Below, piece after piece: positions 1 to 14,784 of a stretch of 43,883 nt of DNA. The notes under the pieces were generated by a model that worked only from the letters and a program-made list of their open reading frames with translations, had not been told where the DNA came from and ran no database searches. The first letter of the stretch is position 1, and each line of letters begins with the position of its first letter. The DNA is from Naegleria gruberi (taxonomy: Eukaryota), in NCBI GenBank assembly GCA_000004985.1, contig GG738970.1. One strand, written 5' to 3'. A program made the position numbers and the translations under genes.

Positions 1-1252
1 TTGATCTGTTCAATACTGATTGAGGAATGAAAGTTTTAATTTCAGCAAGCCACTCAACTGTATTCTTCAAATTATTGAAAATTGAGTTCACTTCTCTAAA
101 CATGGAACTGTTATTCGAAACACTACCCAAATCAAGAACTTTGATTCTTTCGAATTGCTTCTCCAAGAACTTCATAGGTCTCGAAACAACTAGTCCAGTA
201 ACAAAACTTCCAACAATTCCAAGAACAATAATTCCAACAGTGACACCAATAGAAATTGAAGTTGTCAAAATCAAAGCTTCAGTCACCTCTGATTCGTACA
301 AAACAAAGAAAATGTTCCACTGCATATTTTCCAAAACATACTTGTACGGAGTAATGATATAGCTAACACCATCAGATTCTCCCACAATTTTCATCACAGA
401 TGGCAAAATACTAAATGTTCTATTGTTCAACTCGTAGAATTGTTTCATTAGTGAACCAGCATTTCTCGACTTGACATCAAAGATGTTTGTGCTATTTAAA
501 CCATCTCCTGAAATGGTATCGATGGATCCACCAATGACAATGAAATTGTCCTGAGCTACCAGAACGTAACCTCTTCCCAGTAATTCAATCTTGGAGAGAA
601 AGTTTACAATCGTTTCTAGTGAAAGATTAACTTTGGCCAATCCAACCAATGATTTCGTCTTGTTTAGTTTGTAAATTTCTGGATCGTACATTAATTGAGA
701 ATAATAAATGGCAACTGTACTTCCCAAAACCTTGTATGGTTCTCCATACACTCCTTCCAACCCCTTTTCGTAATAGTTTTTCAATGTATAAATGAAGAAA
801 TCTTGTTTGGCAGGTACGTAAGGAGTCAAGTCAACTGTAGAATTGACTTTTACAATGTCTCCTGTGGTGATATTCACAATATCTCTAATGGTGCCTGGAT
901 ATCCATATGGTTGATAGGCAAAAACTGGAAATGGATTACTCGTGGTTCCACTAATAGTATAGGTATATCTGGATGGGAGAGGAACGCTGAAGAAGAATCC
1001 ACAACCAGTAGTTCGAAATTCTACAAACTTTGGAAACAAGTAATTTCTAAACATGGGAATGGTCACAACACCTGTGGTATATTCTCTGGCCATGGTTTTG
1101 GTCAATTTGGCGATTGGTGTCATAACACCATCGAGATAGGTTATAATCTTTCTTCCAGATTCGTTTATGAGCTTGGTAGACAAATCATTAATTGCCTTCT
1201 CTGTTACCAGATAAGAAGATAGCCAAACCAATAAACACCCACTTAGAATCAT
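1..1252 (-). CDS. Two-TM extracellular sensor protein, N-terminal 417 aa: signal-anchor/TM1, double-Cache-like ectodomain, TM2 and HAMP linker. The output domain lies beyond the window start and may be a class III adenylate/guanylate cyclase.
   Basis: I translated the minus strand by hand from the ATG at 1252 (MILSGCLLVWLSSYLV...) down to position 1 and found no stop in 417 codons. The nearest upstream in-frame stop is the TAG at 1361-1363. Hydrophobic TM1 is aa 2-16. The ~300-aa ectodomain carries seven N-x-S/T sequons and a Cache-like core (SLVGLAKVNLSLETIVNFLSKIELLGRGYVLVAQDNFIVIGG, compare the Cache consensus lGVlgvDisL...GYvflvDkdG). TM2 is aa 327-356 (ILTTSISIGVTVGIIVLGIVGSFVTGLVV, plus 185-274). 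The HAMP-like segment is SRPMKFLEKQFERIKVLDLGS...REVNSIFNNLKNTV. The last residues, EIKTFIPQSVLNRS, resemble the LLxxxLPxSVAxxL start of cyclase homology domains. The plus-strand track ORFs 27..362 and 695..1222 are antisense shadows of this gene. Confidence 0.6.
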   Translation of the reverse strand, partial: MILSGCLLVWLSSYLVTEKAINDLSTKLINESGRKIITYLDGVMTPIAKLTKTMAREYTTGVVTIPMFRNYLFPKFVEFRTTGCGFFFSVPLPSRYTYTISGTTSNPFPVFAYQPYGYPGTIRDIVNITTGDIVKVNSTVDLTPYVPAKQDFFIYTLKNYYEKGLEGVYGEPYKVLGSTVAIYYSQLMYDPEIYKLNKTKSLVGLAKVNLSLETIVNFLSKIELLGRGYVLVAQDNFIVIGGSIDTISGDGLNSTNIFDVKSRNAGSLMKQFYELNNRTFSILPSVMKIVGESDGVSYIITPYKYVLENMQWNIFFVLYESEVTEALILTTSISIGVTVGIIVLGIVGSFVTGLVVSRPMKFLEKQFERIKVLDLGSVSNNSSMFREVNSIFNNLKNTVEWLAEIKTFIPQSVLNRS

Positions 1253-1287
1253 TACTGAAATAATTGAAACAATAAAGAGATTGAGTG

Positions 1288-1296
1288 GAATAATAC
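1288..1296. repeat. Left 9-bp target-site duplication (GAATAATAC) of the MULE-like element
   Basis: The same 9-mer, GAATAATAC, recurs in direct orientation at 3950-3958. Each copy sits immediately outside a terminus that begins 5'-GAGT (left) or ends ...ACTC-3' (right). Confidence 0.45.
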
Positions 1297-1400
1297 GAGT
1301 TGATACAAATAAACGGTGAGACGGGCAACGGGATGAACGGGATTCAGGCCGTTCCTTATTCTAAACGGGAGATTCTCTCCGCTTAATACATCTCACTGGT
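1297..1400. repeat. Left terminal / subterminal repeat region of the MULE-like element (AACGGG motif x3-4)
   Basis: A GC-richer island in AT-rich DNA. It reads gagttgatacaaataaacggtgagacgggcaacgggatgaacgggattcaggccgttcc...ctaaacggga. Confidence 0.45.
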
Positions 1401-1677
1401 ATTCAAATAAGGAGTGAGAGAATAGTAACTTTTGAAAAAAGAAGGAGACAATAAATTATATACGAATTTCTTTTTTTACTTATCATGAAAGCAAAAAAAA
1501 GAAACAATATTTTACCTTAGTAACCATTCACTTCGCTCAGTCTGCCTTAGGAAGTCATACGTTGAGAGAATAACATTTCTTAAATTTTCTCTCTAGTAAA
1601 CTTATTGCTAAAGATTTTATTCGATTGCTTTAAAAAAAATGGTTTTCGATTACAAATCTGTCATCAAAGCAAACAAT

Positions 1678-1770
1678 AAGAAGTTTCACTCTGATACACT
1701 ACACCAGTTTCTGGGTATTGTGGTGGTTTTGTTACTACAACTGGTGTAGTGTATCAGAGTGAAACTTCTT
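1678..1770. repeat. Perfect 30-bp inverted repeat (hairpin) with a 33-nt loop, overlapping the 5' end of the transposase ORF
   Basis: The left arm 1678-1707 (aagaagtttcactctgatacactacaccag) is the exact reverse complement of the right arm 1741-1770 (ctggtgtagtgtatcagagtgaaacttctt). Confidence 0.85.
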
Positions 1771-3650
1771 TTTCTGACAAAGCTCAATATTCATTTCGAC
1801 AAGACCCAAAATATTGGGTTGAAGTGAATAAAGAGCAATTCGAGGTTCTCATTTTGAGATGTAATGGCGTTAAAACTTGTTCTAAATGTCCAAATGTATA
1901 TCCAGTCAGTTGCAAGAAAAAGCTATGTAAGACTCATGGTGAACAACTAGAAAAAATTGGGTGTGAGGTAAAGTTCTATCAATTAAAGAAAAGGAATGAA
2001 GCATTATTCTTCTTTACTGGCGATGGAATTCATTCACACGATGTCCCACCACCGAATAAGGTTGACAAGGATGAAGAACAAGCTATTGTGTTGTCATTTC
2101 AACAAAATCCAACTCTTACACCAAAACAAGCTCTGCTTGGTGTTGGAACTCATGATTTGCCTTACCTTAGAAATCCTGCTTTATTGAACATTTCCAAGTA
2201 TCAAAATTTCAAAAGAAAAGCCCTTCTCAAAGTTTCAATGGATAATCCTAATCCAATGTCTACATTGTTTAAAGTAGAACAAGAAATACCAATTTTATTG
2301 AAAGAGTATTTTGAGAAAGAAAGTTTCACTATTCATGTCTCAGATTTAATGACAACATATATGAGACAGTTTTATTTCAATGGTGTTGATACTTTTGCTG
2401 TTATTCAGTTTCCAATTCAATCTTTAATCACTAACTCTTGTGATTTTCTTGTGATTGACTTGAAACACGCTTCCAAATCAGGTCCATTCACTAACTGTCT
2501 TGGAATTTCAAGCTATATTGATACTCCTAAAGGAGGTTTGCCAATGCATTTATCTAGAATACTAATGGATAACTTCAACTATTATCAATCCTTCAAACTT
2601 TGGCTTATTACTTTAGCTGATGATGGTGTAGATTTGACTGATTTATTTAAAAATCAACTAAAGGGTATATTGATTGATTTCTCTCAATCTCAATTAGCTG
2701 GATTGAAAAAAGCCGTTGCAGAATATGTTGTCGATGGAGAAATGCTTATTACAAAGCTAGCTTCTGGTTGCTTTGTTCATTTTTTGAGAAGTGTCAAAAG
2801 AGCTATAAAAACACTCTCTATCTCTGAAGAACACCAAAAGCTGATTCTTGAATTGGCTAAAACTATTCAATTTGTCAAAACCAAGAAGGAGATTGTGTCA
2901 ATATTAGATTCAATTGTTTGTATCGCTTCTTCTCTCGGTTCCTGGAGAAATTGGTGGATCATTCCTGAAGTTTTGAATTTATTGCATTCAGCTAGTCACC
3001 GTCAGAATCCTGAAATTGTTCCAGATAACACAAATAATCAAGAGATTCTCCATGCTGTAGACGTTCCATGCTATTTCGCTAATGCACTTGTTGAATGTGC
3101 TATGCTGTTGAAACATGATATACTAGCAGTTTCCAAATTTGTTGGTTTGAATCAAGGATTCAAGATTTCCAACATATCCACAACTAAAGAGGATAGAGAG
3201 AAAAGAAATGACAGAAGAAAGGAGCTTAAGAATGCTGCTCAAACAGCCAAGTATGATTCTAGACCACCTGATAGTTTGACAAATGGTTTAGAAGCTGGAT
3301 TTACATCAGTTGATGTTTTGAAATCATTTGTCAGCGCTTGGGATAAGACAACTGTTACTGAGCTTGGTGAAATCCTTGTTGATGATGAAAAAGATGAAGA
3401 TTTCTTAATGCCTGTTTCTCCAAATCATTCCTCATCCAAGAGTACCAGTTCTCCTTCTACACCAAAGGCCAAGAAGAAGAGAAAGAGATCTCCAAAAGCT
3501 GCCACTCCTACAACAAGTTCAAATTCAGCTACTTCTCCATCTTTCTCCAGACAGCTTAGAGAAATAGCTAAACAATCATCCTCAACAGGAACTTCTCTTC
3601 CAAGAAATCTACGTCCGAATAGATTCTCTCTTCCTGGCAGGTTGCAATAA
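1749..3650 (+). CDS. MULE/MuDR-family transposase with an N-terminal WRKY-GCM1 (FLYWCH-like) zinc finger. The frame is open from 1695, and the first codon in the ORF track is GTG, not ATG.
   Basis: The N-terminus reads DPKYW...LRCNGVKTCSKCPNV...FFFTGDGIHSHDVPPP, a WRKY-type C-x-C...H-x-H finger of the kind typical at MULE transposase N-termini. The core reads FYFNGVDTFAV...GILIDFSQSQLAGLKKAVAEYV...SGCFVHFLRSV, matching the MULE DDE region (vDgTf / ilTDgd.al.kAi / C..H motif). There is a possible degenerate SWIM-like PCYFANALVECAMLLKH. The C-terminus is basic and S/T-rich (KAKKKRKRSPK). The intact 633 codons lie inside the TSD-flanked element. Confidence 0.65.
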   Translation: MYQSETSFSDKAQYSFRQDPKYWVEVNKEQFEVLILRCNGVKTCSKCPNVYPVSCKKKLCKTHGEQLEKIGCEVKFYQLKKRNEALFFFTGDGIHSHDVPPPNKVDKDEEQAIVLSFQQNPTLTPKQALLGVGTHDLPYLRNPALLNISKYQNFKRKALLKVSMDNPNPMSTLFKVEQEIPILLKEYFEKESFTIHVSDLMTTYMRQFYFNGVDTFAVIQFPIQSLITNSCDFLVIDLKHASKSGPFTNCLGISSYIDTPKGGLPMHLSRILMDNFNYYQSFKLWLITLADDGVDLTDLFKNQLKGILIDFSQSQLAGLKKAVAEYVVDGEMLITKLASGCFVHFLRSVKRAIKTLSISEEHQKLILELAKTIQFVKTKKEIVSILDSIVCIASSLGSWRNWWIIPEVLNLLHSASHRQNPEIVPDNTNNQEILHAVDVPCYFANALVECAMLLKHDILAVSKFVGLNQGFKISNISTTKEDREKRNDRRKELKNAAQTAKYDSRPPDSLTNGLEAGFTSVDVLKSFVSAWDKTTVTELGEILVDDEKDEDFLMPVSPNHSSSKSTSSPSTPKAKKKRKRSPKAATPTTSSNSATSPSFSRQLREIAKQSSSTGTSLPRNLRPNRFSLPGRLQ

Positions 3651-3849: not shown

Positions 3850-3949
3850 TTCCGTTTCTTACTCCAAACTGGACCGTCCTACCGTTTCTTATTTGAAACG
3901 GATTCCGTTAGACTGGCTTTCCCGCTATCCCGTTTCTTAGTATTCACTC
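3850..3949. repeat. Right terminal / subterminal repeat region of the MULE-like element (CCGTTTCTTA x3 plus ccgtt)
   Basis: The sequence is ttccgtttcttactcc...ctaccgtttcttatttgaaacggattccgtta...tatcccgtttcttagtattcactc. It is inverted relative to the left-end AACGGG copies. It also contains a small hairpin, ccgtttc-ttattt-gaaacgg. Confidence 0.45.
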
Positions 3950-5136: not shown

Positions 5137-5186
5137 NNNNNNNNNNNNNNNNNNNNNNNNNNNNNNNNNNNNNNNNNNNNNNNNNN
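5137..5186. other. Assembly gap (50 N)
   Basis: Run of n. Confidence 0.95.
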
Positions 5187-8976: not shown

Positions 8977-9478
8977 AGATGACCCCTTTAACATGGTAGA
9001 CGAATGTTTGGATCGAGCCCTGAAATTTTGTGACATCCAATCCCATTCTTTCAAGTCATCTTTGAAAAGGGATTGTCATGTAATTGCTTCAGTTGATACC
9101 ACTCTAAATCACATATGCCTTGTTATAGAACACCAAAGAGACAATTGCTCTTCCATTTGGAAACACAAAGACTTTGCAAAAATGCTCTTATTGATGAGAA
9201 CATGTTTGAAATCTTCCATGTTAACAGCTCAAAGAAACAGAAAACATTGCCCAAAGCCACTAAGAACATTTGGAATTTTGTCTTCTAGAGACAACATATT
9301 CATACTCTGCATGCAAGCCGATTTACTTTCAGTTGAGAATGTTCATATCGAGACTTTTGGAATTGAGCACGCATTGACCTCGCATGCATTCTCGTTGAAC
9401 AAAGAAGAGGAAAGAGAACAATTTATCAAGACACTTACAGCTCATTTAGATTATTTCAGAGCTATTTCTCTTGTTGAA
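8977..9478 (+). CDS. Hypothetical protein, probable exon 2 (...MVDECLDRALKFCDIQSHSFKSSLKRDCHVIASVD...AHLDYFRAISLVE), 3' end lost in the gap
   Basis: The frame is open from 8977. It has an internal ATG at 8993 in good context (ttaacATGg) and runs uninterrupted to the N-run at 9479. I recognise no family. Confidence 0.45.
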
Positions 9479-12400
9479 NNNNNNNNNNNNNNNNNNNNNN
9501 NNNNNNNNNNNNNNNNNNNNNNNNNNNNNNNNNNNNNNNNNNNNNNNNNNNNNNNNNNNNNNNNNNNNNNNNNNNNNNNNNNNNNNNNNNNNNNNNNNNN
9601 NNNNNNNNNNNNNNNNNNNNNNNNNNNNNNNNNNNNNNNNNNNNNNNNNNNNNNNNNNNNNNNNNNNNNNNNNNNNNNNNNNNNNNNNNNNNNNNNNNNN
9701 NNNNNNNNNNNNNNNNNNNNNNNNNNNNNNNNNNNNNNNNNNNNNNNNNNNNNNNNNNNNNNNNNNNNNNNNNNNNNNNNNNNNNNNNNNNNNNNNNNNN
9801 NNNNNNNNNNNNNNNNNNNNNNNNNNNNNNNNNNNNNNNNNNNNNNNNNNNNNNNNNNNNNNNNNNNNNNNNNNNNNNNNNNNNNNNNNNNNNNNNNNNN
9901 NNNNNNNNNNNNNNNNNNNNNNNNNNNNNNNNNNNNNNNNNNNNNNNNNNNNNNNNNNNNNNNNNNNNNNNNNNNNNNNNNNNNNNNNNNNNNNNNNNNN
10001 NNNNNNNNNNNNNNNNNNNNNNNNNNNNNNNNNNNNNNNNNNNNNNNNNNNNNNNNNNNNNNNNNNNNNNNNNNNNNNNNNNNNNNNNNNNNNNNNNNNN
10101 NNNNNNNNNNNNNNNNNNNNNNNNNNNNNNNNNNNNNNNNNNNNNNNNNNNNNNNNNNNNNNNNNNNNNNNNNNNNNNNNNNNNNNNNNNNNNNNNNNNN
10201 NNNNNNNNNNNNNNNNNNNNNNNNNNNNNNNNNNNNNNNNNNNNNNNNNNNNNNNNNNNNNNNNNNNNNNNNNNNNNNNNNNNNNNNNNNNNNNNNNNNN
10301 NNNNNNNNNNNNNNNNNNNNNNNNNNNNNNNNNNNNNNNNNNNNNNNNNNNNNNNNNNNNNNNNNNNNNNNNNNNNNNNNNNNNNNNNNNNNNNNNNNNN
10401 NNNNNNNNNNNNNNNNNNNNNNNNNNNNNNNNNNNNNNNNNNNNNNNNNNNNNNNNNNNNNNNNNNNNNNNNNNNNNNNNNNNNNNNNNNNNNNNNNNNN
10501 NNNNNNNNNNNNNNNNNNNNNNNNNNNNNNNNNNNNNNNNNNNNNNNNNNNNNNNNNNNNNNNNNNNNNNNNNNNNNNNNNNNNNNNNNNNNNNNNNNNN
10601 NNNNNNNNNNNNNNNNNNNNNNNNNNNNNNNNNNNNNNNNNNNNNNNNNNNNNNNNNNNNNNNNNNNNNNNNNNNNNNNNNNNNNNNNNNNNNNNNNNNN
10701 NNNNNNNNNNNNNNNNNNNNNNNNNNNNNNNNNNNNNNNNNNNNNNNNNNNNNNNNNNNNNNNNNNNNNNNNNNNNNNNNNNNNNNNNNNNNNNNNNNNN
10801 NNNNNNNNNNNNNNNNNNNNNNNNNNNNNNNNNNNNNNNNNNNNNNNNNNNNNNNNNNNNNNNNNNNNNNNNNNNNNNNNNNNNNNNNNNNNNNNNNNNN
10901 NNNNNNNNNNNNNNNNNNNNNNNNNNNNNNNNNNNNNNNNNNNNNNNNNNNNNNNNNNNNNNNNNNNNNNNNNNNNNNNNNNNNNNNNNNNNNNNNNNNN
11001 NNNNNNNNNNNNNNNNNNNNNNNNNNNNNNNNNNNNNNNNNNNNNNNNNNNNNNNNNNNNNNNNNNNNNNNNNNNNNNNNNNNNNNNNNNNNNNNNNNNN
11101 NNNNNNNNNNNNNNNNNNNNNNNNNNNNNNNNNNNNNNNNNNNNNNNNNNNNNNNNNNNNNNNNNNNNNNNNNNNNNNNNNNNNNNNNNNNNNNNNNNNN
11201 NNNNNNNNNNNNNNNNNNNNNNNNNNNNNNNNNNNNNNNNNNNNNNNNNNNNNNNNNNNNNNNNNNNNNNNNNNNNNNNNNNNNNNNNNNNNNNNNNNNN
11301 NNNNNNNNNNNNNNNNNNNNNNNNNNNNNNNNNNNNNNNNNNNNNNNNNNNNNNNNNNNNNNNNNNNNNNNNNNNNNNNNNNNNNNNNNNNNNNNNNNNN
11401 NNNNNNNNNNNNNNNNNNNNNNNNNNNNNNNNNNNNNNNNNNNNNNNNNNNNNNNNNNNNNNNNNNNNNNNNNNNNNNNNNNNNNNNNNNNNNNNNNNNN
11501 NNNNNNNNNNNNNNNNNNNNNNNNNNNNNNNNNNNNNNNNNNNNNNNNNNNNNNNNNNNNNNNNNNNNNNNNNNNNNNNNNNNNNNNNNNNNNNNNNNNN
11601 NNNNNNNNNNNNNNNNNNNNNNNNNNNNNNNNNNNNNNNNNNNNNNNNNNNNNNNNNNNNNNNNNNNNNNNNNNNNNNNNNNNNNNNNNNNNNNNNNNNN
11701 NNNNNNNNNNNNNNNNNNNNNNNNNNNNNNNNNNNNNNNNNNNNNNNNNNNNNNNNNNNNNNNNNNNNNNNNNNNNNNNNNNNNNNNNNNNNNNNNNNNN
11801 NNNNNNNNNNNNNNNNNNNNNNNNNNNNNNNNNNNNNNNNNNNNNNNNNNNNNNNNNNNNNNNNNNNNNNNNNNNNNNNNNNNNNNNNNNNNNNNNNNNN
11901 NNNNNNNNNNNNNNNNNNNNNNNNNNNNNNNNNNNNNNNNNNNNNNNNNNNNNNNNNNNNNNNNNNNNNNNNNNNNNNNNNNNNNNNNNNNNNNNNNNNN
12001 NNNNNNNNNNNNNNNNNNNNNNNNNNNNNNNNNNNNNNNNNNNNNNNNNNNNNNNNNNNNNNNNNNNNNNNNNNNNNNNNNNNNNNNNNNNNNNNNNNNN
12101 NNNNNNNNNNNNNNNNNNNNNNNNNNNNNNNNNNNNNNNNNNNNNNNNNNNNNNNNNNNNNNNNNNNNNNNNNNNNNNNNNNNNNNNNNNNNNNNNNNNN
12201 NNNNNNNNNNNNNNNNNNNNNNNNNNNNNNNNNNNNNNNNNNNNNNNNNNNNNNNNNNNNNNNNNNNNNNNNNNNNNNNNNNNNNNNNNNNNNNNNNNNN
12301 NNNNNNNNNNNNNNNNNNNNNNNNNNNNNNNNNNNNNNNNNNNNNNNNNNNNNNNNNNNNNNNNNNNNNNNNNNNNNNNNNNNNNNNNNNNNNNNNNNNN

Positions 12401-13976
12401 NNNNNNNNNNNNNNNNNNNNNNNNNNNNNNNNNNNNNNNNNNNNNNNNNNNNNNNNNNNNNNNNNNNNNNNNNNNNNNNNNNNNNNNNNNNNNNNNNNNN
12501 NNNNNNNNNNNNNNNNNNNNNNNNNNNNNNNNNNNNNNNNNNNNNNNNNNNNNNNNNNNNNNNNNNNNNNNNNNNNNNNNNNNNNNNNNNNNNNNNNNNN
12601 NNNNNNNNNNNNNNNNNNNNNNNNNNNNNNNNNNNNNNNNNNNNNNNNNNNNNNNNNNNNNNNNNNNNNNNNNNNNNNNNNNNNNNNNNNNNNNNNNNNN
12701 NNNNNNNNNNNNNNNNNNNNNNNNNNNNNNNNNNNNNNNNNNNNNNNNNNNNNNNNNNNNNNNNNNNNNNNNNNNNNNNNNNNNNNNNNNNNNNNNNNNN
12801 NNNNNNNNNNNNNNNNNNNNNNNNNNNNNNNNNNNNNNNNNNNNNNNNNNNNNNNNNNNNNNNNNNNNNNNNNNNNNNNNNNNNNNNNNNNNNNNNNNNN
12901 NNNNNNNNNNNNNNNNNNNNNNNNNNNNNNNNNNNNNNNNNNNNNNNNNNNNNNNNNNNNNNNNNNNNNNNNNNNNNNNNNNNNNNNNNNNNNNNNNNNN
13001 NNNNNNNNNNNNNNNNNNNNNNNNNNNNNNNNNNNNNNNNNNNNNNNNNNNNNNNNNNNNNNNNNNNNNNNNNNNNNNNNNNNNNNNNNNNNNNNNNNNN
13101 NNNNNNNNNNNNNNNNNNNNNNNNNNNNNNNNNNNNNNNNNNNNNNNNNNNNNNNNNNNNNNNNNNNNNNNNNNNNNNNNNNNNNNNNNNNNNNNNNNNN
13201 NNNNNNNNNNNNNNNNNNNNNNNNNNNNNNNNNNNNNNNNNNNNNNNNNNNNNNNNNNNNNNNNNNNNNNNNNNNNNNNNNNNNNNNNNNNNNNNNNNNN
13301 NNNNNNNNNNNNNNNNNNNNNNNNNNNNNNNNNNNNNNNNNNNNNNNNNNNNNNNNNNNNNNNNNNNNNNNNNNNNNNNNNNNNNNNNNNNNNNNNNNNN
13401 NNNNNNNNNNNNNNNNNNNNNNNNNNNNNNNNNNNNNNNNNNNNNNNNNNNNNNNNNNNNNNNNNNNNNNNNNNNNNNNNNNNNNNNNNNNNNNNNNNNN
13501 NNNNNNNNNNNNNNNNNNNNNNNNNNNNNNNNNNNNNNNNNNNNNNNNNNNNNNNNNNNNNNNNNNNNNNNNNNNNNNNNNNNNNNNNNNNNNNNNNNNN
13601 NNNNNNNNNNNNNNNNNNNNNNNNNNNNNNNNNNNNNNNNNNNNNNNNNNNNNNNNNNNNNNNNNNNNNNNNNNNNNNNNNNNNNNNNNNNNNNNNNNNN
13701 NNNNNNNNNNNNNNNNNNNNNNNNNNNNNNNNNNNNNNNNNNNNNNNNNNNNNNNNNNNNNNNNNNNNNNNNNNNNNNNNNNNNNNNNNNNNNNNNNNNN
13801 NNNNNNNNNNNNNNNNNNNNNNNNNNNNNNNNNNNNNNNNNNNNNNNNNNNNNNNNNNNNNNNNNNNNNNNNNNNNNNNNNNNNNNNNNNNNNNNNNNNN
13901 NNNNNNNNNNNNNNNNNNNNNNNNNNNNNNNNNNNNNNNNNNNNNNNNNNNNNNNNNNNNNNNNNNNNNNNNNNNN
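9479..13976. other. Assembly gap (4498 N)
   Basis: Run of n. The track ORFs 8993..14104 and 9471..13985 are artefacts of translating N. Confidence 0.95.
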
Positions 13977-14784
13977 AAAGGGTGAGCTATTGGCTCCAGT
14001 TGGTTTGTTTGGAGCGAATCTATTCTCAGCTGATTCTAATAATCCACTTTGGAAAAAGCACAGAACATTGGCTAATCCAGTATTCAGTAACAGTTCTCAT
14101 TTAAGGAATGTTTTTAGAGTTACAATGGAGGAATTAGCAAAGATGATTCCATACTGGACTAAATATTATGATTCAGATTCTAATGGAAATATTCGAAATG
14201 TTAACACTACACAAGAGTTGAAGTCTATTACATTAAGCATTATCAATAGAGTTGCATTCGATTTCAATATAGAGATATTTGATAAGAATCCTGAACACAG
14301 AGACGAAGTACATGGTTGGATTTCTGATTTATTAGTTGGTTTATTATACAAGTTTGTATTCCCTGAATGGTTATTCGAATATGTTCCTTTTGGAATTTTC
14401 AAAAGATTTAAAGATGCAAAGAATAGATTCAGAGAGACAGCCATGAAGATGATTCTCAAAAAGACAAAGGAATATGAGAATGCCAATCAAGTGAAAGAAG
14501 ATGAAGATTTACTAAGCTTATTGTTGAAAAGCTCCAATAATGGTAAATTAACAGAGGAAGAACGTTTGACAAATGACGAATTGGTTAGTGCCATTTTCAT
14601 TATTTTCTTTGCTGGATTTGAAACAAGTTCCAATTCTTTGAACTTCATGTTGAGATTGTTGGCAACCAGACCAGAAATACAAGAAAAACTCATTGAAGAA
14701 ATTGATAATGAAATTCCATCCATGGATTCAATCAAATCAAAAGAGAGTTTAATAAACTTAAATATTTTACAACACTCAATTTAG
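13977..14784 (+). CDS. Cytochrome P450, internal fragment (helix C region through the I-helix and EEID). The 5' part is in the gap, and the C-terminal third (ExxR, PERF, heme-binding Cys loop) is not recoverable downstream.
   Basis: The frame is open straight out of the gap. It reads KGELLAPVGLFGANLFSADSNNPLWKKHRTLANPVFS (P450 G.GL...G..W...R...P.F region), then ...DLLSLLLKS...LTNDELVSAIFIIFFAGFETSSNSLNFMLRLLATRPEIQEKLIEEID (the canonical I-helix A/G-G-x-E-T-S motif plus hP.vq.kl.eEid). It stops at a TAG at 14782-14784, where the K-helix is expected. The next in-frame codons read RLFSCKRFPLIKIPVKQ*. The track's first codon, at 13990, is TTG and not a true start. Confidence 0.8.

What the first reader, a model, noticed from the sequence alone, without database searches (positions are those of the whole stretch)
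1..1252. Gene missed by the ORF track: a dCache-like ectodomain / TM / HAMP receptor, likely a receptor-type nucleotidyl cyclase, in a eukaryotic context
Hand translation of the minus strand gives a stop-free 417-codon N-terminal fragment that runs off the window; the ORF track shows only plus-strand shadow ORFs here. The topology is a short N-terminus, TM1, a ~300-aa ectodomain with a Cache-type core and seven N-glycosylation sequons, TM2, then a HAMP-like amphipathic linker (RPMKFLEKQFERIKVLDLGS...EVNSIFNNLKN). The final visible residues, FIPQSVLNRS, resemble the opening helix of class III cyclase catalytic domains.

Cache plus HAMP is a hallmark prokaryotic sensor architecture. In an intron-bearing eukaryotic contig it suggests either a lineage-specific receptor cyclase or histidine kinase family, or horizontal acquisition.
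Basis: partly seen in the sequence, partly recalled or inferred. Interest (0 to 1): 0.55.

Follow-up and report, generated by a model that had tools for sequence, protein, structure and literature searches.

The report
Naegleria dCache receptor with degenerate cyclase domain
The stretch encodes the front 60% of an already-annotated Naegleria gruberi membrane receptor with a bacterial-style dCache sensor outside the cell and a HAMP-like linker inside; its near-identical full-length copy ends in a cyclase-type domain that has lost most of the residues needed to make cAMP or cGMP.

Summary
The minus strand of 1-1252 is a stop-free 417-codon frame, open back to 1360, with two TM helices and seven ectodomain sequons.

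It is not a missed gene. The window is a whole N. gruberi scaffold and the ORF is EFC35967.1, "predicted protein, partial".

The ectodomain is a dCache fold: the top 50 Foldseek hits are all dCache sensors, and the family profile reaches solved dCache domains at E=4.6e-6. The juxtamembrane segment is HAMP-like in position, length and motifs, but statistically weak.

The missing C-terminus, read from the 99%-identical NAEGRDRAFT_64468, is a class III cyclase-homology domain (profile vs ADCY10 E=4.7e-6). It lacks the first metal Asp, the substrate Lys/Glu and the transition-state Asn/Arg. A polar insertion of roughly 40 residues (Pro-to-beta1 spacing 67 vs 26) separates it from its opening helix.

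"VLNRS" at the window edge is a 1-bp indel artefact; the true sequence is VFEQI.

The gene belongs to a Naegleria/Willaertia paralogue expansion (at least 11 N. gruberi models) that Pfam barely detects. Cache plus cyclase in Naegleria was published in 2016 as "a single protein". There are no signs of recent horizontal transfer.

This is a modestly new variant, a probable receptor pseudo-cyclase.

The parts
1516..1527 (-). Candidate first mini-exon, ATG GTT ACT AAG (MVTK). Inferred only.
   Evidence: an ATG is followed by a GTAAAA donor, and splicing to 1360 keeps the frame. No RNA evidence is available. There is no in-frame ATG between the upstream stop and Met1252.
1361..1515 (-). Candidate 155-nt GT...AG intron. 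Inferred only.
   Evidence: The in-frame 'stop' TAG at 1361-1363 coincides with a pyrimidine-rich ...CCCGTTTAG acceptor.
1295..1360 (-). Cytoplasmic N-terminal segment, NKERPESRSSRCPSHRLFVSTR, rich in Arg (positive-inside).
   Evidence: It aligns with the pre-TM1 region of the homologues.
1205..1294 (-). TM1 (IIPLNLFIVSIISVMILSGCLLVWLSSYLV). The annotated Met (1250-1252) lies inside it.
   Evidence: Kyte-Doolittle peak 2.59. Helix in the model. Aligned with TM1 of P0003-P0007.
284..1201 (-). Extracellular dCache (double Cache) sensor domain, 306 aa, with 7 N-glycosylation sequons.
   Evidence: AF2 model: stalk helix plus two alpha/beta modules. Foldseek: top 50 hits are all dCache LBDs. Family profile against PDB: 8 of 8 hits are dCache, best 4.6e-6. 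Pfam dCache_1 in 13 of 40 relatives. Sequons.
794..820 (-). Pocket motif Y-VPAK-Q-D-F-F, in register with the amino-acid motif YxxxxRxWY but with R->Q, W->F and Y->F.
   Evidence: Alignment to Mlp24 with exact motif spacing. Family members with YxxxxRxWY occupy the same columns. Motif definition from PMC8915833.
626..628 (-). Asn (KVNLSL) at the position of the ligand-amino-group Asp (PctA D173). It also forms an N-L-S sequon.
   Evidence: Mlp24 and Mlp37 'YD' aligns to 'vN'. At least 90% conserved in A8. D173N abolishes binding in PctA (PMC8915833).
185..274 (-). TM2.
   Evidence: Kyte-Doolittle peak 2.43. Continuous helix 356-407 in the model.
32..184 (-). HAMP-like juxtamembrane module: helix (SRPMKFLEKQFERIKVLDL), connector (GSVSNNSS), helix (MFREVNSIFNNLKNTVEWLAEIKT).
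   Evidence: Helix-loop-helix in the model at low pLDDT. Linker profile against PDB: 13 of 21 hits are HAMP, gap-free over 50 residues, E 0.14-1.2. Pfam HAMP hit by 5 of 53 linker segments, best 2.3e-4.
1..31 (-). Start of the conserved helix FIPQSV(FEQI), homologous to the opening helix of the cyclase-homology domain. A 1-bp deletion at about 10-13 shifts the frame, and the scaffold then ends.
   Evidence: frame restored by one T. (aligned with KYVPAEVV of canonical P0070, 26 aa before beta1).

Best explanation
Window 1-1360 (minus strand), probably with a 12-nt first exon at 1516-1527, encodes the N-terminal ~60% of a two-pass plasma-membrane receptor of Naegleria gruberi (EFC35967.1).

Shown:
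- The topology is N-in, then TM1, then a glycosylatable extracellular dCache domain, then TM2, then a cytoplasmic HAMP-like helix-loop-helix.
- The rest of the protein, read from the 99%-identical copy NAEGRDRAFT_64468, is a polar and probably disordered stretch (67 residues from the conserved Pro to beta1), then a class III cyclase-homology domain, then a ~120-aa helical tail.

Inferred mechanism:
- The protein acts as a dimer, like bacterial dCache receptors.
- A small ligand binds the membrane-distal pocket. It is not a canonical alpha-amino acid, because the Arg and Asp of the amino-acid motif are Gln and Asn here.
- That binding displaces TM2 and resets the HAMP-like bundle.
- The cyclase-homology domain lacks the first metal Asp (Lys), the substrate Lys/Glu (Val) and the transition-state Asn/Arg (Glu / gap-Lys). 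A homodimer is therefore predicted not to make cAMP or cGMP.
- The output is then most likely non-catalytic: regulated dimerisation, or partner binding through the degenerate domain and the helical tail. Pairing with a competent cyclase paralogue is less likely.

The gene is one member of a paralogue family expanded in Naegleria and Willaertia.
For: - ORF and topology.
- Identity and annotation.
- dCache.
- HAMP-like.
- Cyclase-homology domain in P0002 and the family:
  - Pfam sub-threshold to threshold hits.
  - Profile against PDB: the top 20 hits are all class III cyclases, best 4.7e-6.
  - 15 of 40 and 27 of 57 relatives hit Guanylate_cyc.
  - Family CHD HMM against canonical P0070: 73 bits.
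  - Foldseek of the P0002 model gives only dCache and cyclase folds.
- Degenerate catalytic set:
  - MAFFT columns and an independent HMM register.
  - Among 39 relatives, Asp1 is never D; Lys/Glu is never K or E; Asn is kept in 3 and Arg in 2.
  - Only 1 of 159 retrieved relatives has both canonical motifs.
- Insertion: Pro-to-beta1 spacing is 67 in P0002 and a median of 71 in the family, against 26 in canonical P0070. pLDDT is below 50 there.
- Pocket substitutions.
- Family distribution.
Against: - The C-terminal half is not in the window. It is inferred from a 99%-identical copy whose DNA I could not fetch.
- The window protein alone gives no Cache, HAMP or cyclase HMM hit.
- The HAMP evidence is not individually significant (E 0.14-1.2).
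- The P0002 model is poor (pLDDT 54), so the catalytic-site reading rests on sequence alignment only. Around beta1 the alignment is ambiguous (3-residue indel).
- The second acidic residue is retained (D/E in 24 of 39) and a Lys is conserved next to the Arg position, so an unusual active site cannot be excluded.
- The exon-1 model has no RNA support. This copy may not be expressed, because it has no in-frame ATG before TM1 and a frameshift at the scaffold end.
Confidence: 0.7

Rival explanations
1. It is a catalytically active receptor adenylyl or guanylyl cyclase, using a non-canonical active site or Mn2+. Ligand binding to the dCache domain then directly controls cNMP synthesis.
For: - Clear homology to class III cyclases.
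- The second acidic residue is retained in 24 of 39 members, and a Lys is conserved beside the Arg position.
- The closest canonical relative, P0070, has the same sensor and linker plus an intact catalytic set, so the ancestral protein was probably an enzyme.
- Sources label relatives 'adenylate cyclase' or 'Guanylate cyclase domain-containing'.
Against: - The first metal Asp, the substrate Lys/Glu and the transition-state Asn and Arg are all replaced, in two independent alignments.
- Replacements are variable (K/R/T/Q...), not a conserved alternative chemistry.
- A polar, probably disordered insertion (spacing 67 vs 26 residues) uncouples the domain from its opening helix.
- Source labels are automatic domain names, not assays.
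Confidence: 0.2
2. The degenerate domain works like the C2 half of mammalian or soluble adenylyl cyclase. It heterodimerises with a catalytically competent Naegleria cyclase paralogue and supplies a regulatory pseudo-site, so that dCache ligand binding tunes the partner.
For: - The best PDB sequence match is to the C2 domain of ADCY10, residues 293-418.
- Naegleria carries many cyclases ('at least 81', PMC9928731).
- The dimer-interface motif GN(L/I)G...R(Y/F)F is strongly conserved.
Against: - A C2-type partner normally contributes Lys/Asp, Asn and Arg, and these are also missing here.
- No partner was identified. Of the top 159 relatives, only one, from a metagenome, is canonical.
Confidence: 0.1
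3. This particular copy is a non-functional duplicate, either an unplaced haplotig or a decaying paralogue of NAEGRDRAFT_64468. The feature in the window would then be a gene fragment without a function of its own.
For: - The scaffold is 72% N and ends inside the gene.
- There is no in-frame ATG upstream of TM1.
- There is a 1-bp frameshift at the end.
- A 99%-identical copy exists on a 665-kb scaffold.
Against: - 453 codons are open (p about 2e-15).
- A plausible spliced start exists.
- The frameshift is within 15 nt of the scaffold end, where read quality is lowest.
- It is the other copy (P0002) whose 5' part looks frame-disrupted. The window therefore holds the only intact version of the first ~120 ectodomain residues.
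Confidence: 0.2
4. The gene is a recent horizontal acquisition from bacteria, or bacterial contamination of the assembly.
For: - dCache-HAMP-cyclase is a typical prokaryotic architecture.
- Upadhyay et al. 2016 attribute eukaryotic Cache domains to horizontal transfer and call the Naegleria protein 'bacterial-type'.
Against: - GC is 36%, like its neighbours at 31-35%.
- Seven N-glycosylation sequons.
- Homologues occur in four heterolobosean species, with many paralogues.
- There is an intron in the homologue on L001.
- All top-150 relatives are of the same degenerate eukaryote-type family.
- No prokaryotic relative was found in the genome-contig scan (a weak test based on one pattern).
- An ancient transfer is not excluded.
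Confidence: 0.03

Closest known systems
Naegleria 'bacterial-type adenylate cyclase' with a Cache domain (Upadhyay, Fleetwood, Adebali, Finn & Zhulin 2016, PMC4822843)
   Same: Same organism group and same architecture class: an extracellular Cache domain plus a class III cyclase domain. This shows the combination is already published.
   Different: That paper reports 'a single protein' detectable with Pfam-type models. The window gene and at least 10 further N. gruberi paralogues fall below those thresholds, and their cyclase domains lack the catalytic residues.
Bacterial dCache-HAMP-class III adenylate cyclases (e.g. M. tuberculosis Rv2435c, cited in PMC4822843) and the metagenomic relative P0070
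   Same: Same order of modules: TM1, dCache, TM2, juxtamembrane helices, Pro-helix, cyclase-homology domain. P0070 aligns over the sensor, linker and CHD.
   Different: The canonical enzymes keep FxD, K..GD and VN..R, and have about 26 residues between the Pro-helix and beta1. The window family has lost these residues and carries a polar insertion that stretches the spacing to 34-126 residues. It also has a ~120-aa helical C-terminal tail.
Bacterial dCache chemoreceptors (B. subtilis McpB/YvaQ, P. aeruginosa PctA/PctC, V. cholerae Mlp24/Mlp37, C. jejuni Tlp3)
   Same: Best structural matches for the in-window part. The McpB and YvaQ models align over about 440 columns including TM and HAMP. 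Mlp24 aligns by sequence with exact motif spacing.
   Different: The output is a cyclase-like domain, not an MCP signalling hairpin. The amino-acid motif is broken (R126->Q, W128->F, D173->N). The protein is eukaryotic and carries N-glycosylation sequons.
C2 domain of soluble adenylyl cyclase ADCY10, and C2 of transmembrane adenylyl cyclases (pseudo-symmetric, metal-Asp-less halves)
   Same: Best PDB sequence match (E=4.7e-6, residues 293-418). Like C2, it lacks the first metal-binding Asp.
   Different: C2 domains retain the substrate Lys and the transition-state Asn/Arg and work with a C1 partner in the same chain. Here those residues are also missing, and there is only one cyclase-homology domain per chain.
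Eukaryotic dCache proteins alpha2delta / CACHD1 (Gumerov et al. 2022, PMC8915833)
   Same: Extracellular dCache_1 in a eukaryote. That paper also lists Heterolobosea among the lineages with dCache_1AA proteins.
   Different: No VWA insertion, a single dCache, a bacterial-like two-TM topology, the amino-acid motif not intact, and a different output.
Trypanosomatid receptor adenylate cyclases (ESAG4/GRESAG4 type) and Dictyostelium ACG
   Same: Protist receptor-type class III cyclases with a large extracellular sensor.
   Different: Those use a periplasmic-binding-protein-like or other ectodomain with a single TM and an active catalytic domain (established knowledge). Only 1 of 57 distant relatives here hit Peripla_BP_A-cyclase.

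Membership tests
dCache_1 (double Cache extracellular sensor, Pfam PF02743 / Cache superfamily) | Extracytoplasmic location between two transmembrane helices, with TM2 directly C-terminal of the domain | tested here: met
   Two hydrophobic segments flank the 306-aa domain, and Arg/Lys-rich segments lie on the cytoplasmic sides. Continuous helices in the model.
dCache_1 (double Cache extracellular sensor, Pfam PF02743 / Cache superfamily) | Fold: a long N-terminal stalk helix followed by two tandem PAS-like alpha/beta modules | tested here: met
   AF2 model pLDDT 72. The Foldseek top 50 are all dCache LBDs, prob 1.0, TM (target) up to 0.76.
dCache_1 (double Cache extracellular sensor, Pfam PF02743 / Cache superfamily) | Sequence match to the Pfam dCache_1 model at or above the gathering score (45 bits) | tested here: not met
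   The window protein has no hit even at E<=10. Close paralogues score 12-19 bits. The best relatives reach E=4.9e-10 and 4.7e-12, and the individually scored ones reach 29.7-31.5 bits, still below 45.
dCache_1 (double Cache extracellular sensor, Pfam PF02743 / Cache superfamily) | Significant profile-level sequence homology to experimentally solved dCache domains | tested here: met
   Ectodomain family profile A8 against PDB: all 8 hits are dCache LBDs. 6mni E=4.6e-6, Mlp24 E=6.4e-4.
dCache_1AA (amino-acid-sensing subfamily; Gumerov et al. 2022) | AA_motif Y121-x4-R126-x-W128(-Y129) ... Y144 ... D173 | tested here: not met
   In-register mapping through Mlp24 and through family members that keep YxxxxRxWY gives Y, Q, F, F, Y, N. 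R126A and D173N are loss-of-function in PctA (PMC8915833).
HAMP domain (Pfam PF00672) | Position immediately after the last TM helix; about 50 residues forming helix, connector, helix | tested here: met
   SRPMKF starts right after TM2. The model shows a helix to residue 407, a loop at 408-419 and a helix at 420-444 (low pLDDT 43-66). The alignment to Af1503 and NarQ HAMP is gap-free over 50 residues.
HAMP domain (Pfam PF00672) | Conserved Pro at the start of helix 1 and Glu at the start of helix 2 | tested here: met
   P6 is conserved in at least 90% and E34 is invariant in the 53-sequence linker alignment. They align with the Pro of 'TRP' and the Glu of 'DEIG' in Af1503. That these are the signature residues rests on established knowledge of HAMP.
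HAMP domain (Pfam PF00672) | Statistically significant match to a HAMP model or to solved HAMP sequences | tested here: inconclusive
   The window linker itself has no HAMP hit. 5 of 53 family linkers hit Pfam HAMP, best E=2.3e-4. 13 of 21 PDB hits are HAMP, but at E 0.14-1.2.
HAMP domain (Pfam PF00672) | Parallel four-helix bundle in the dimer | not testable with these tools
   Only monomer prediction was available.
Class III nucleotidyl cyclase (Pfam PF00211 Guanylate_cyc) | Cyclase-homology-domain fold and sequence homology (C-terminal half, taken from P0002, outside the window) | tested here: met
   - Profile against PDB: top 20 hits are all class III cyclases, best 4.7e-6.
- P0008 scores 22.1 bits, above the GA of 21.9.
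- 15 of 40 and 27 of 57 relatives hit Guanylate_cyc.
- 73 bits to canonical P0070.
- Foldseek hits to Cya2, CyaC, CyaB and sGC, TM about 0.5.
Class III nucleotidyl cyclase (Pfam PF00211 Guanylate_cyc) | Two metal-binding Asp residues (FxD... and ...GD) | tested here: not met
   Asp1 is Lys in P0002 and is never Asp in 39 relatives. Asp2 is retained as D in P0002 and as D/E in 24 of 39.
Class III nucleotidyl cyclase (Pfam PF00211 Guanylate_cyc) | Substrate-specifying Lys (AC) or Glu (GC) four residues before the second Asp | tested here: not met
   Val in P0002, and I/V in 31 of 39. Same register in the HMM alignment.
Class III nucleotidyl cyclase (Pfam PF00211 Guanylate_cyc) | Transition-state-stabilising Asn and Arg (G-x-x-V-N-x-x-x-R) | tested here: not met
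   Asn is Glu, and Arg is a gap or Lys, in P0002. Asn is kept in 3 of 39 and Arg in 2 of 39. Only 1 of 159 relatives has both motifs.
Class III nucleotidyl cyclase (Pfam PF00211 Guanylate_cyc) | Formation of cAMP or cGMP | not testable with these tools
   Needs an enzyme assay.
   No HisKA or HATPase_c hit in P0002 or in any of the 97 scanned relatives.

The most novel reading that the evidence does not exclude
The window gene represents a large, previously unrecognised eukaryotic class of chemoreceptor. These are dCache/HAMP receptors, expanded in Naegleria and Willaertia and including the pathogen N. fowleri, whose class III cyclase domain has become a pseudo-enzyme. They would signal without making cyclic nucleotides, for example through ligand-controlled dimer geometry read out by the helical tail or by phosphorylation of the Ser-rich insertion. 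The published cyclase counts for Naegleria ('at least 81') would then mix true enzymes with such pseudo-cyclases.
Probability: 0.35. Interest if true: 0.6.

Novelty: new variant of a known kind. Interest (0 to 1): 0.38.

Why it matters
- Naegleria is known for an unusually large sensory repertoire, but the ligands and outputs of its receptors are unknown.
- Cache-type receptors were thought to be almost absent from this lineage (one protein, PMC4822843). This analysis finds at least 11 gene models in N. gruberi alone, with orthologues in N. fowleri, N. lovaniensis and Willaertia, because standard Pfam thresholds miss them.
- If the cyclase-homology domain really is catalytically dead, part of the 'cyclase' expansion counted in Naegleria genomes consists of pseudo-enzymes. 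cAMP/cGMP-centred models of how these amoebae sense prey, hosts or differentiation cues would then need revising.
- The recombinant ectodomains are directly testable by ligand screening, as has been done for bacterial dCache domains.
- For the scan itself, the lesson is practical.

Tried and rejected
1. Direct Pfam and NCBIfam scans of the 417-aa fragment gave only a spurious NucS_C hit. This was uninformative, not negative evidence, as the later family-level tests showed.
2. The word-indexed homology search with the fragment alone found only 3 proteins. The exhaustive HMMER search was needed to see the family.
3. I could not retrieve the genomic locus of P0002. The allele-versus-paralogue question and the exact 3' continuation of the window remain open.
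4. The AF2 model of P0002 was poor (pLDDT 54, pTM 0.30). I used it only for fold class, not for active-site geometry.
5. The genome-contig scan for prokaryotic relatives used a single peptide pattern and found nothing. This is a weak negative.
6. Literature searches for pseudo-cyclase or degenerate cyclase in Naegleria found nothing relevant. The library is incomplete and the original genome paper was not among the hits, so I cannot claim that nobody has noted this.
7. Histidine-kinase output: rejected.
8. An intron after FIPQS, my first reading of the window end: rejected in favour of a 1-bp indel, because one inserted T reproduces the P0002 sequence.
9. P0002's N-terminus as a genuine alternative exon: rejected as unlikely, since parts of it are out-of-frame readings of window-like DNA.
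10. The plus-strand ORFs 27-362 and 695-1222 are shadows of the minus-strand gene.
Full report
**1. The observation**

Translating the minus strand of 1-1252 gives 417 codons without a stop. The frame stays open for another 36 codons, up to a TAG at 1361-1363. At this composition, 453 open codons have a chance probability of about 2e-15.

A hydropathy scan finds exactly two strong hydrophobic segments, at window 1205-1294 and 185-274. Between them lie seven N-x-S/T sequons, against 2.8 +/- 1.5 in shuffles. The quoted linker peptide is present. So the thing described is in the sequence.

Three details need correcting.

- The ORF lister does not report ORFs that run off the source (its own description). 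"Missed by the ORF track" is therefore a tool rule, not a biological gap.
- The window is an entire 43,883-bp Naegleria gruberi scaffold, 72% of it N. The ORF is already deposited as EFC35967.1 / XP_002668711.1, "predicted protein, partial".
- The residues upstream of Met1252 (…STRIIPLNLFIVSIISV-M-ILSGC…) align with TM1 of the homologues, so that Met lies inside TM1. There is no in-frame ATG between the upstream stop and it.
  - A plausible solution is a 12-nt first exon (ATGGTTACTAAG, 1516-1527) spliced over a 155-nt GT…AG intron, whose acceptor contains the apparent stop. This is inference only.

At the other end, "VLNRS" is not real protein. Inserting one T into the TATT run at window 10-13 turns the reading into IKTFIPQSVFEQI, identical to the 99% copy P0002.

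**2. What the in-window part is**

Single-sequence scans of the fragment against Pfam and NCBIfam give no Cache, HAMP or cyclase hit. Family-level and structural tests reverse it.

Finding the family:
- An alignment-based search found Naegleria paralogues and orthologues.
- An exhaustive HMMER search with an 8-sequence profile found 6,758 representatives at E<=1e-3 and 130 at E<=1e-30.
- About 60 of these align over the full length.

The ectodomain is a dCache domain:
- An AlphaFold model of the window fragment (pLDDT 72, pTM 0.64) shows TM1 running into a long stalk helix, then two alpha/beta modules, then TM2.
- All 50 best Foldseek matches in the PDB are dCache ligand-binding domains of bacterial chemoreceptors and sensor kinases (PctC, Mlp24, Tlp3, CtaA, TlpA, PctD, mmHK1S-Z2/Z3), with prob 1.0 and TM up to 0.76 by target. 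The two best are full-length B. subtilis McpB and YvaQ models, aligned over about 440 columns.
- A 19-sequence ectodomain profile reaches solved dCache domains by sequence alone. All 8 hits are dCache, with 6mni at E=4.6e-6 and Mlp24 at 6.4e-4.
- 13 of 40 full-length relatives hit Pfam dCache_1, best 4.9e-10.

**3. The ligand pocket**

The published amino-acid-binding motif of dCache_1 is Y121-x4-R126-x-W128-Y129 … Y144 … D173. R126A weakens binding 61-fold, and D173A and D173N abolish it (PMC8915833).

The HMMER alignment to Mlp24 reproduces the exact motif spacing (+5, +2, +16, +29). It maps the window residues as Y181, Q186, F188, F189, Y209 and N245. More distant family members keep Y-x4-R-x-W-Y in the same columns, which confirms the register.

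The two residues most critical for amino-acid binding are therefore replaced. The Asn at the D173 column is at least 90% conserved across the family. The ligand is therefore probably not an alpha-amino acid bound in the canonical way. What it is remains unknown.

**4. The HAMP claim**

The segment after TM2 has several HAMP-like features:
- It is in the right place and has the right length.
- It is predicted as helix-loop-helix, though at low confidence.
- Its Pro is conserved in at least 90% of 53 family linkers, and its Glu is invariant.

A profile of those linkers finds 21 PDB sequences at E<=10. Of these, 13 are HAMP domains (Af1503, Af1503-EnvZ chimeras, NarQ), each aligned gap-free over 50 residues with Pro on Pro and Glu on Glu. 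However, each E-value is only 0.14-1.2. In Pfam, HAMP is the only family hit by more than two linkers (5 of 53, best 2.3e-4), and the window's own linker does not hit it.

I call it a divergent HAMP-like module: architecturally convincing, statistically inconclusive.

**5. The output domain (outside the window)**

P0002 (NAEGRDRAFT_64468, 678 aa) is 99% identical to the window protein over 71% of its length, and it continues past the scaffold end. Several lines show its C-terminal half is a class III cyclase-homology domain:

- Pfam Guanylate_cyc scores 17.2 bits in P0002, 18 in P0004 and 22.1 in P0008, against a cut-off of 21.9.
- The family profile hits PDB class III cyclases only in its top 20, the best being the ADCY10 C2 domain at E=4.7e-6.
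- 15 of 40 and 27 of 57 relatives hit Guanylate_cyc.
- An HMM of the family's domain scores 73 bits against P0070, the one canonical relative.
- Even the poor P0002 model (pLDDT 54) returns only dCache and cyclase folds.
- No histidine-kinase domains occur anywhere.

The guess that FIPQSV… is the opening helix of the cyclase domain is also borne out. It aligns with KYVPAEVV of P0070, which lies the canonical 26 residues before strand beta1.

**6. Why it is probably not an enzyme**

P0070 (Guanylate_cyc 87.6 bits) carries FTDI, K-x-x-GDA and VNASSR, so I used it as the in-alignment reference. The table gives the catalytic columns.

| Position | Canonical | P0002 | 39 relatives |
|---|---|---|---|
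| First metal Asp | D | K | R/K in 19; never D |
| Substrate-specifying residue | K or E | V | I/V in 31; never K or E |
| Second metal Asp | D | D | D/E in 24 |
| Transition-state Asn | N | E | N in 3 |
| Transition-state Arg | R | gap or K | R in 2 |

An independent HMM alignment gives the same register. It treats the "TDI" of FTDI as having no counterpart in the family. Only 1 of 159 retrieved relatives has both canonical motifs.

In addition, the spacing between the opening helix and beta1 is 67 residues in P0002. The family median is 71 (range 34-126), against 26 in P0070. The extra sequence is S/T/N/Q-rich and has pLDDT below 50.

A homodimer of such domains lacks what established class III chemistry requires. 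I therefore favour a receptor pseudo-cyclase. I cannot exclude an unusual active site, because one acidic residue and a neighbouring Lys are conserved. Nor can I exclude a C2-like role beside a competent paralogue.

**7. Family and origin**

Named members include:
- at least 11 N. gruberi gene models (the window gene and P0002, P0005, P0006, P0010, P0011, P0017, P0018, P0021, P0032, P0128);
- seven N. lovaniensis proteins;
- several N. fowleri and Willaertia magna proteins;
- more distant relatives that share only the linker-cyclase-tail module. These include an Apiculatamorpha transcript and ankyrin-repeat metagenome proteins labelled class 3 adenylate cyclase.

UniRef already calls the N. 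lovaniensis and N. fowleri members "Guanylate cyclase domain-containing protein". The N. gruberi ones are "predicted protein".

Upadhyay et al. [quoted passage not shown] The pangenome paper counts "at least 81 cyclases" (PMC9928731). So the architecture is known. Its multiplicity, its invisibility to Pfam and the degenerate catalytic site were not reported in the papers I could search.

Recent horizontal transfer or contamination is unlikely:
- The gene's GC (36%) matches its surroundings.
- A homologue has an intron inside the cyclase domain.
- The family spans four heterolobosean species.
- A pattern scan of 185,579 prokaryotic genomes found no relative. This is a weak test.

An ancient bacterial origin of the architecture remains plausible but was not tested.

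**8. Status of this copy**

The window copy is cut by the scaffold end and has a 1-bp indel within 15 nt of that end, which is probably a sequencing error.

Residues 1-35 of the P0002 model look like out-of-frame readings of window-like DNA. For example, DIQAPL matches an alternative frame at about window position 903. The window therefore holds the only intact version of the first ~120 ectodomain residues of this gene pair.

Whether the two are alleles or paralogues cannot be settled without the other scaffold's DNA.

**9. Verdict**

It was wrong on "missed gene", on the last four residues, and probably on enzymatic function and horizontal acquisition.

The feature is a new variant of a known kind. 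It is a eukaryotic dCache/HAMP receptor whose class III cyclase domain appears to have become a pseudo-enzyme, and it belongs to a sizeable heterolobosean expansion. Interest is moderate.

Noticed in passing
window 1675-1709 and 1739-1773: A 35-nt inverted repeat, 97% complementary with a 28-nt perfect core and a 29-nt loop, unique in the window. It lies in the divergent intergenic region between the receptor gene's 5' end and the 633-aa ORF, and its right arm overlaps that ORF's first codons. Its function is unknown (hairpin, bidirectional regulatory element, or a transposon end).
   Followed up: partly
window 1749-3650 (+): A 633-aa ORF with no Pfam match. It has a Cys/His-rich N-terminal region and a Ser/Lys-rich tail with a KKKRKR motif. 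It is transcribed divergently from the receptor gene. No homology search was run.
   Followed up: partly
window 13990-14784 (+): A cytochrome P450 fragment (Pfam p450, E=5.7e-35, profile positions 90-316) on a sequence island between two N gaps.
   Followed up: partly
window 5137-5186, 9479-13976, 15295-42333: N gaps make up 72% of the scaffold. The very long 'ORFs' listed at 8993-14104, 9471-13985, 14997-42368 and 15212-42337 are artefacts of translating runs of N.
   Followed up: yes
P0002 (NAEGRDRAFT_64468) residues 1-35, compared with window ~890-1000: The N-terminus of the near-identical copy's gene model resembles out-of-frame translations of window-like DNA (DIQAPL; SFQSSVGWITRIH against SFCLSTIWISRHH). 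This suggests a frameshifted, diverged or mis-modelled 5' region in that locus.
   Followed up: partly
P0006 and P0007 (alignment A2, columns ~700-760 and ~835-860): The P0006 gene model lacks the central ~55 residues of the cyclase-homology domain. P0007 carries a 23-aa insert (VCYYSTVGSRCTIKSRFLVTMMK) that looks like a retained intron. Both are probably annotation errors in family members.
   Followed up: no
L001 8020-8130: The N. fowleri-like contig has an intron inside the cyclase-homology domain. The prokaryote-style gene call therefore truncates the product (P0003, 679 aa), and the downstream frame continues the protein. The true orthologue, FDP41_008709, is 854 aa.
   Followed up: yes
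L002 3342-8259: On a 35%-GC metagenome contig, the only canonical dCache-cyclase relative (P0070, intact catalytic motifs) lies next to a divergently oriented hybrid histidine kinase and an RCC1-repeat gene. The organism is unknown. It may represent the enzymatically active ancestral form of the family.
   Followed up: partly
window 1349-1366, 3852-3869, 3882-3899: An 18-nt direct-repeat family (CCGTTYCTTAYTC/TNAAAC, 83% identity). One copy overlaps the candidate intron acceptor and exon 2 start of the receptor gene, and two copies lie 30 nt apart downstream of the 633-aa ORF. It may be chance.
   Followed up: no
alignment A5/A6, C-terminal ~120 residues (P0002 555-678): A conserved helical tail follows the cyclase-homology domain (motif DEW[LM]YEL, with invariant Trp in the distant set). 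It gives a few weak TPR-type Pfam hits in distant relatives (Fis1_TPR_C, TPR_21, TPR_14). Its function is unknown, and it is a candidate partner-binding module.
   Followed up: partly
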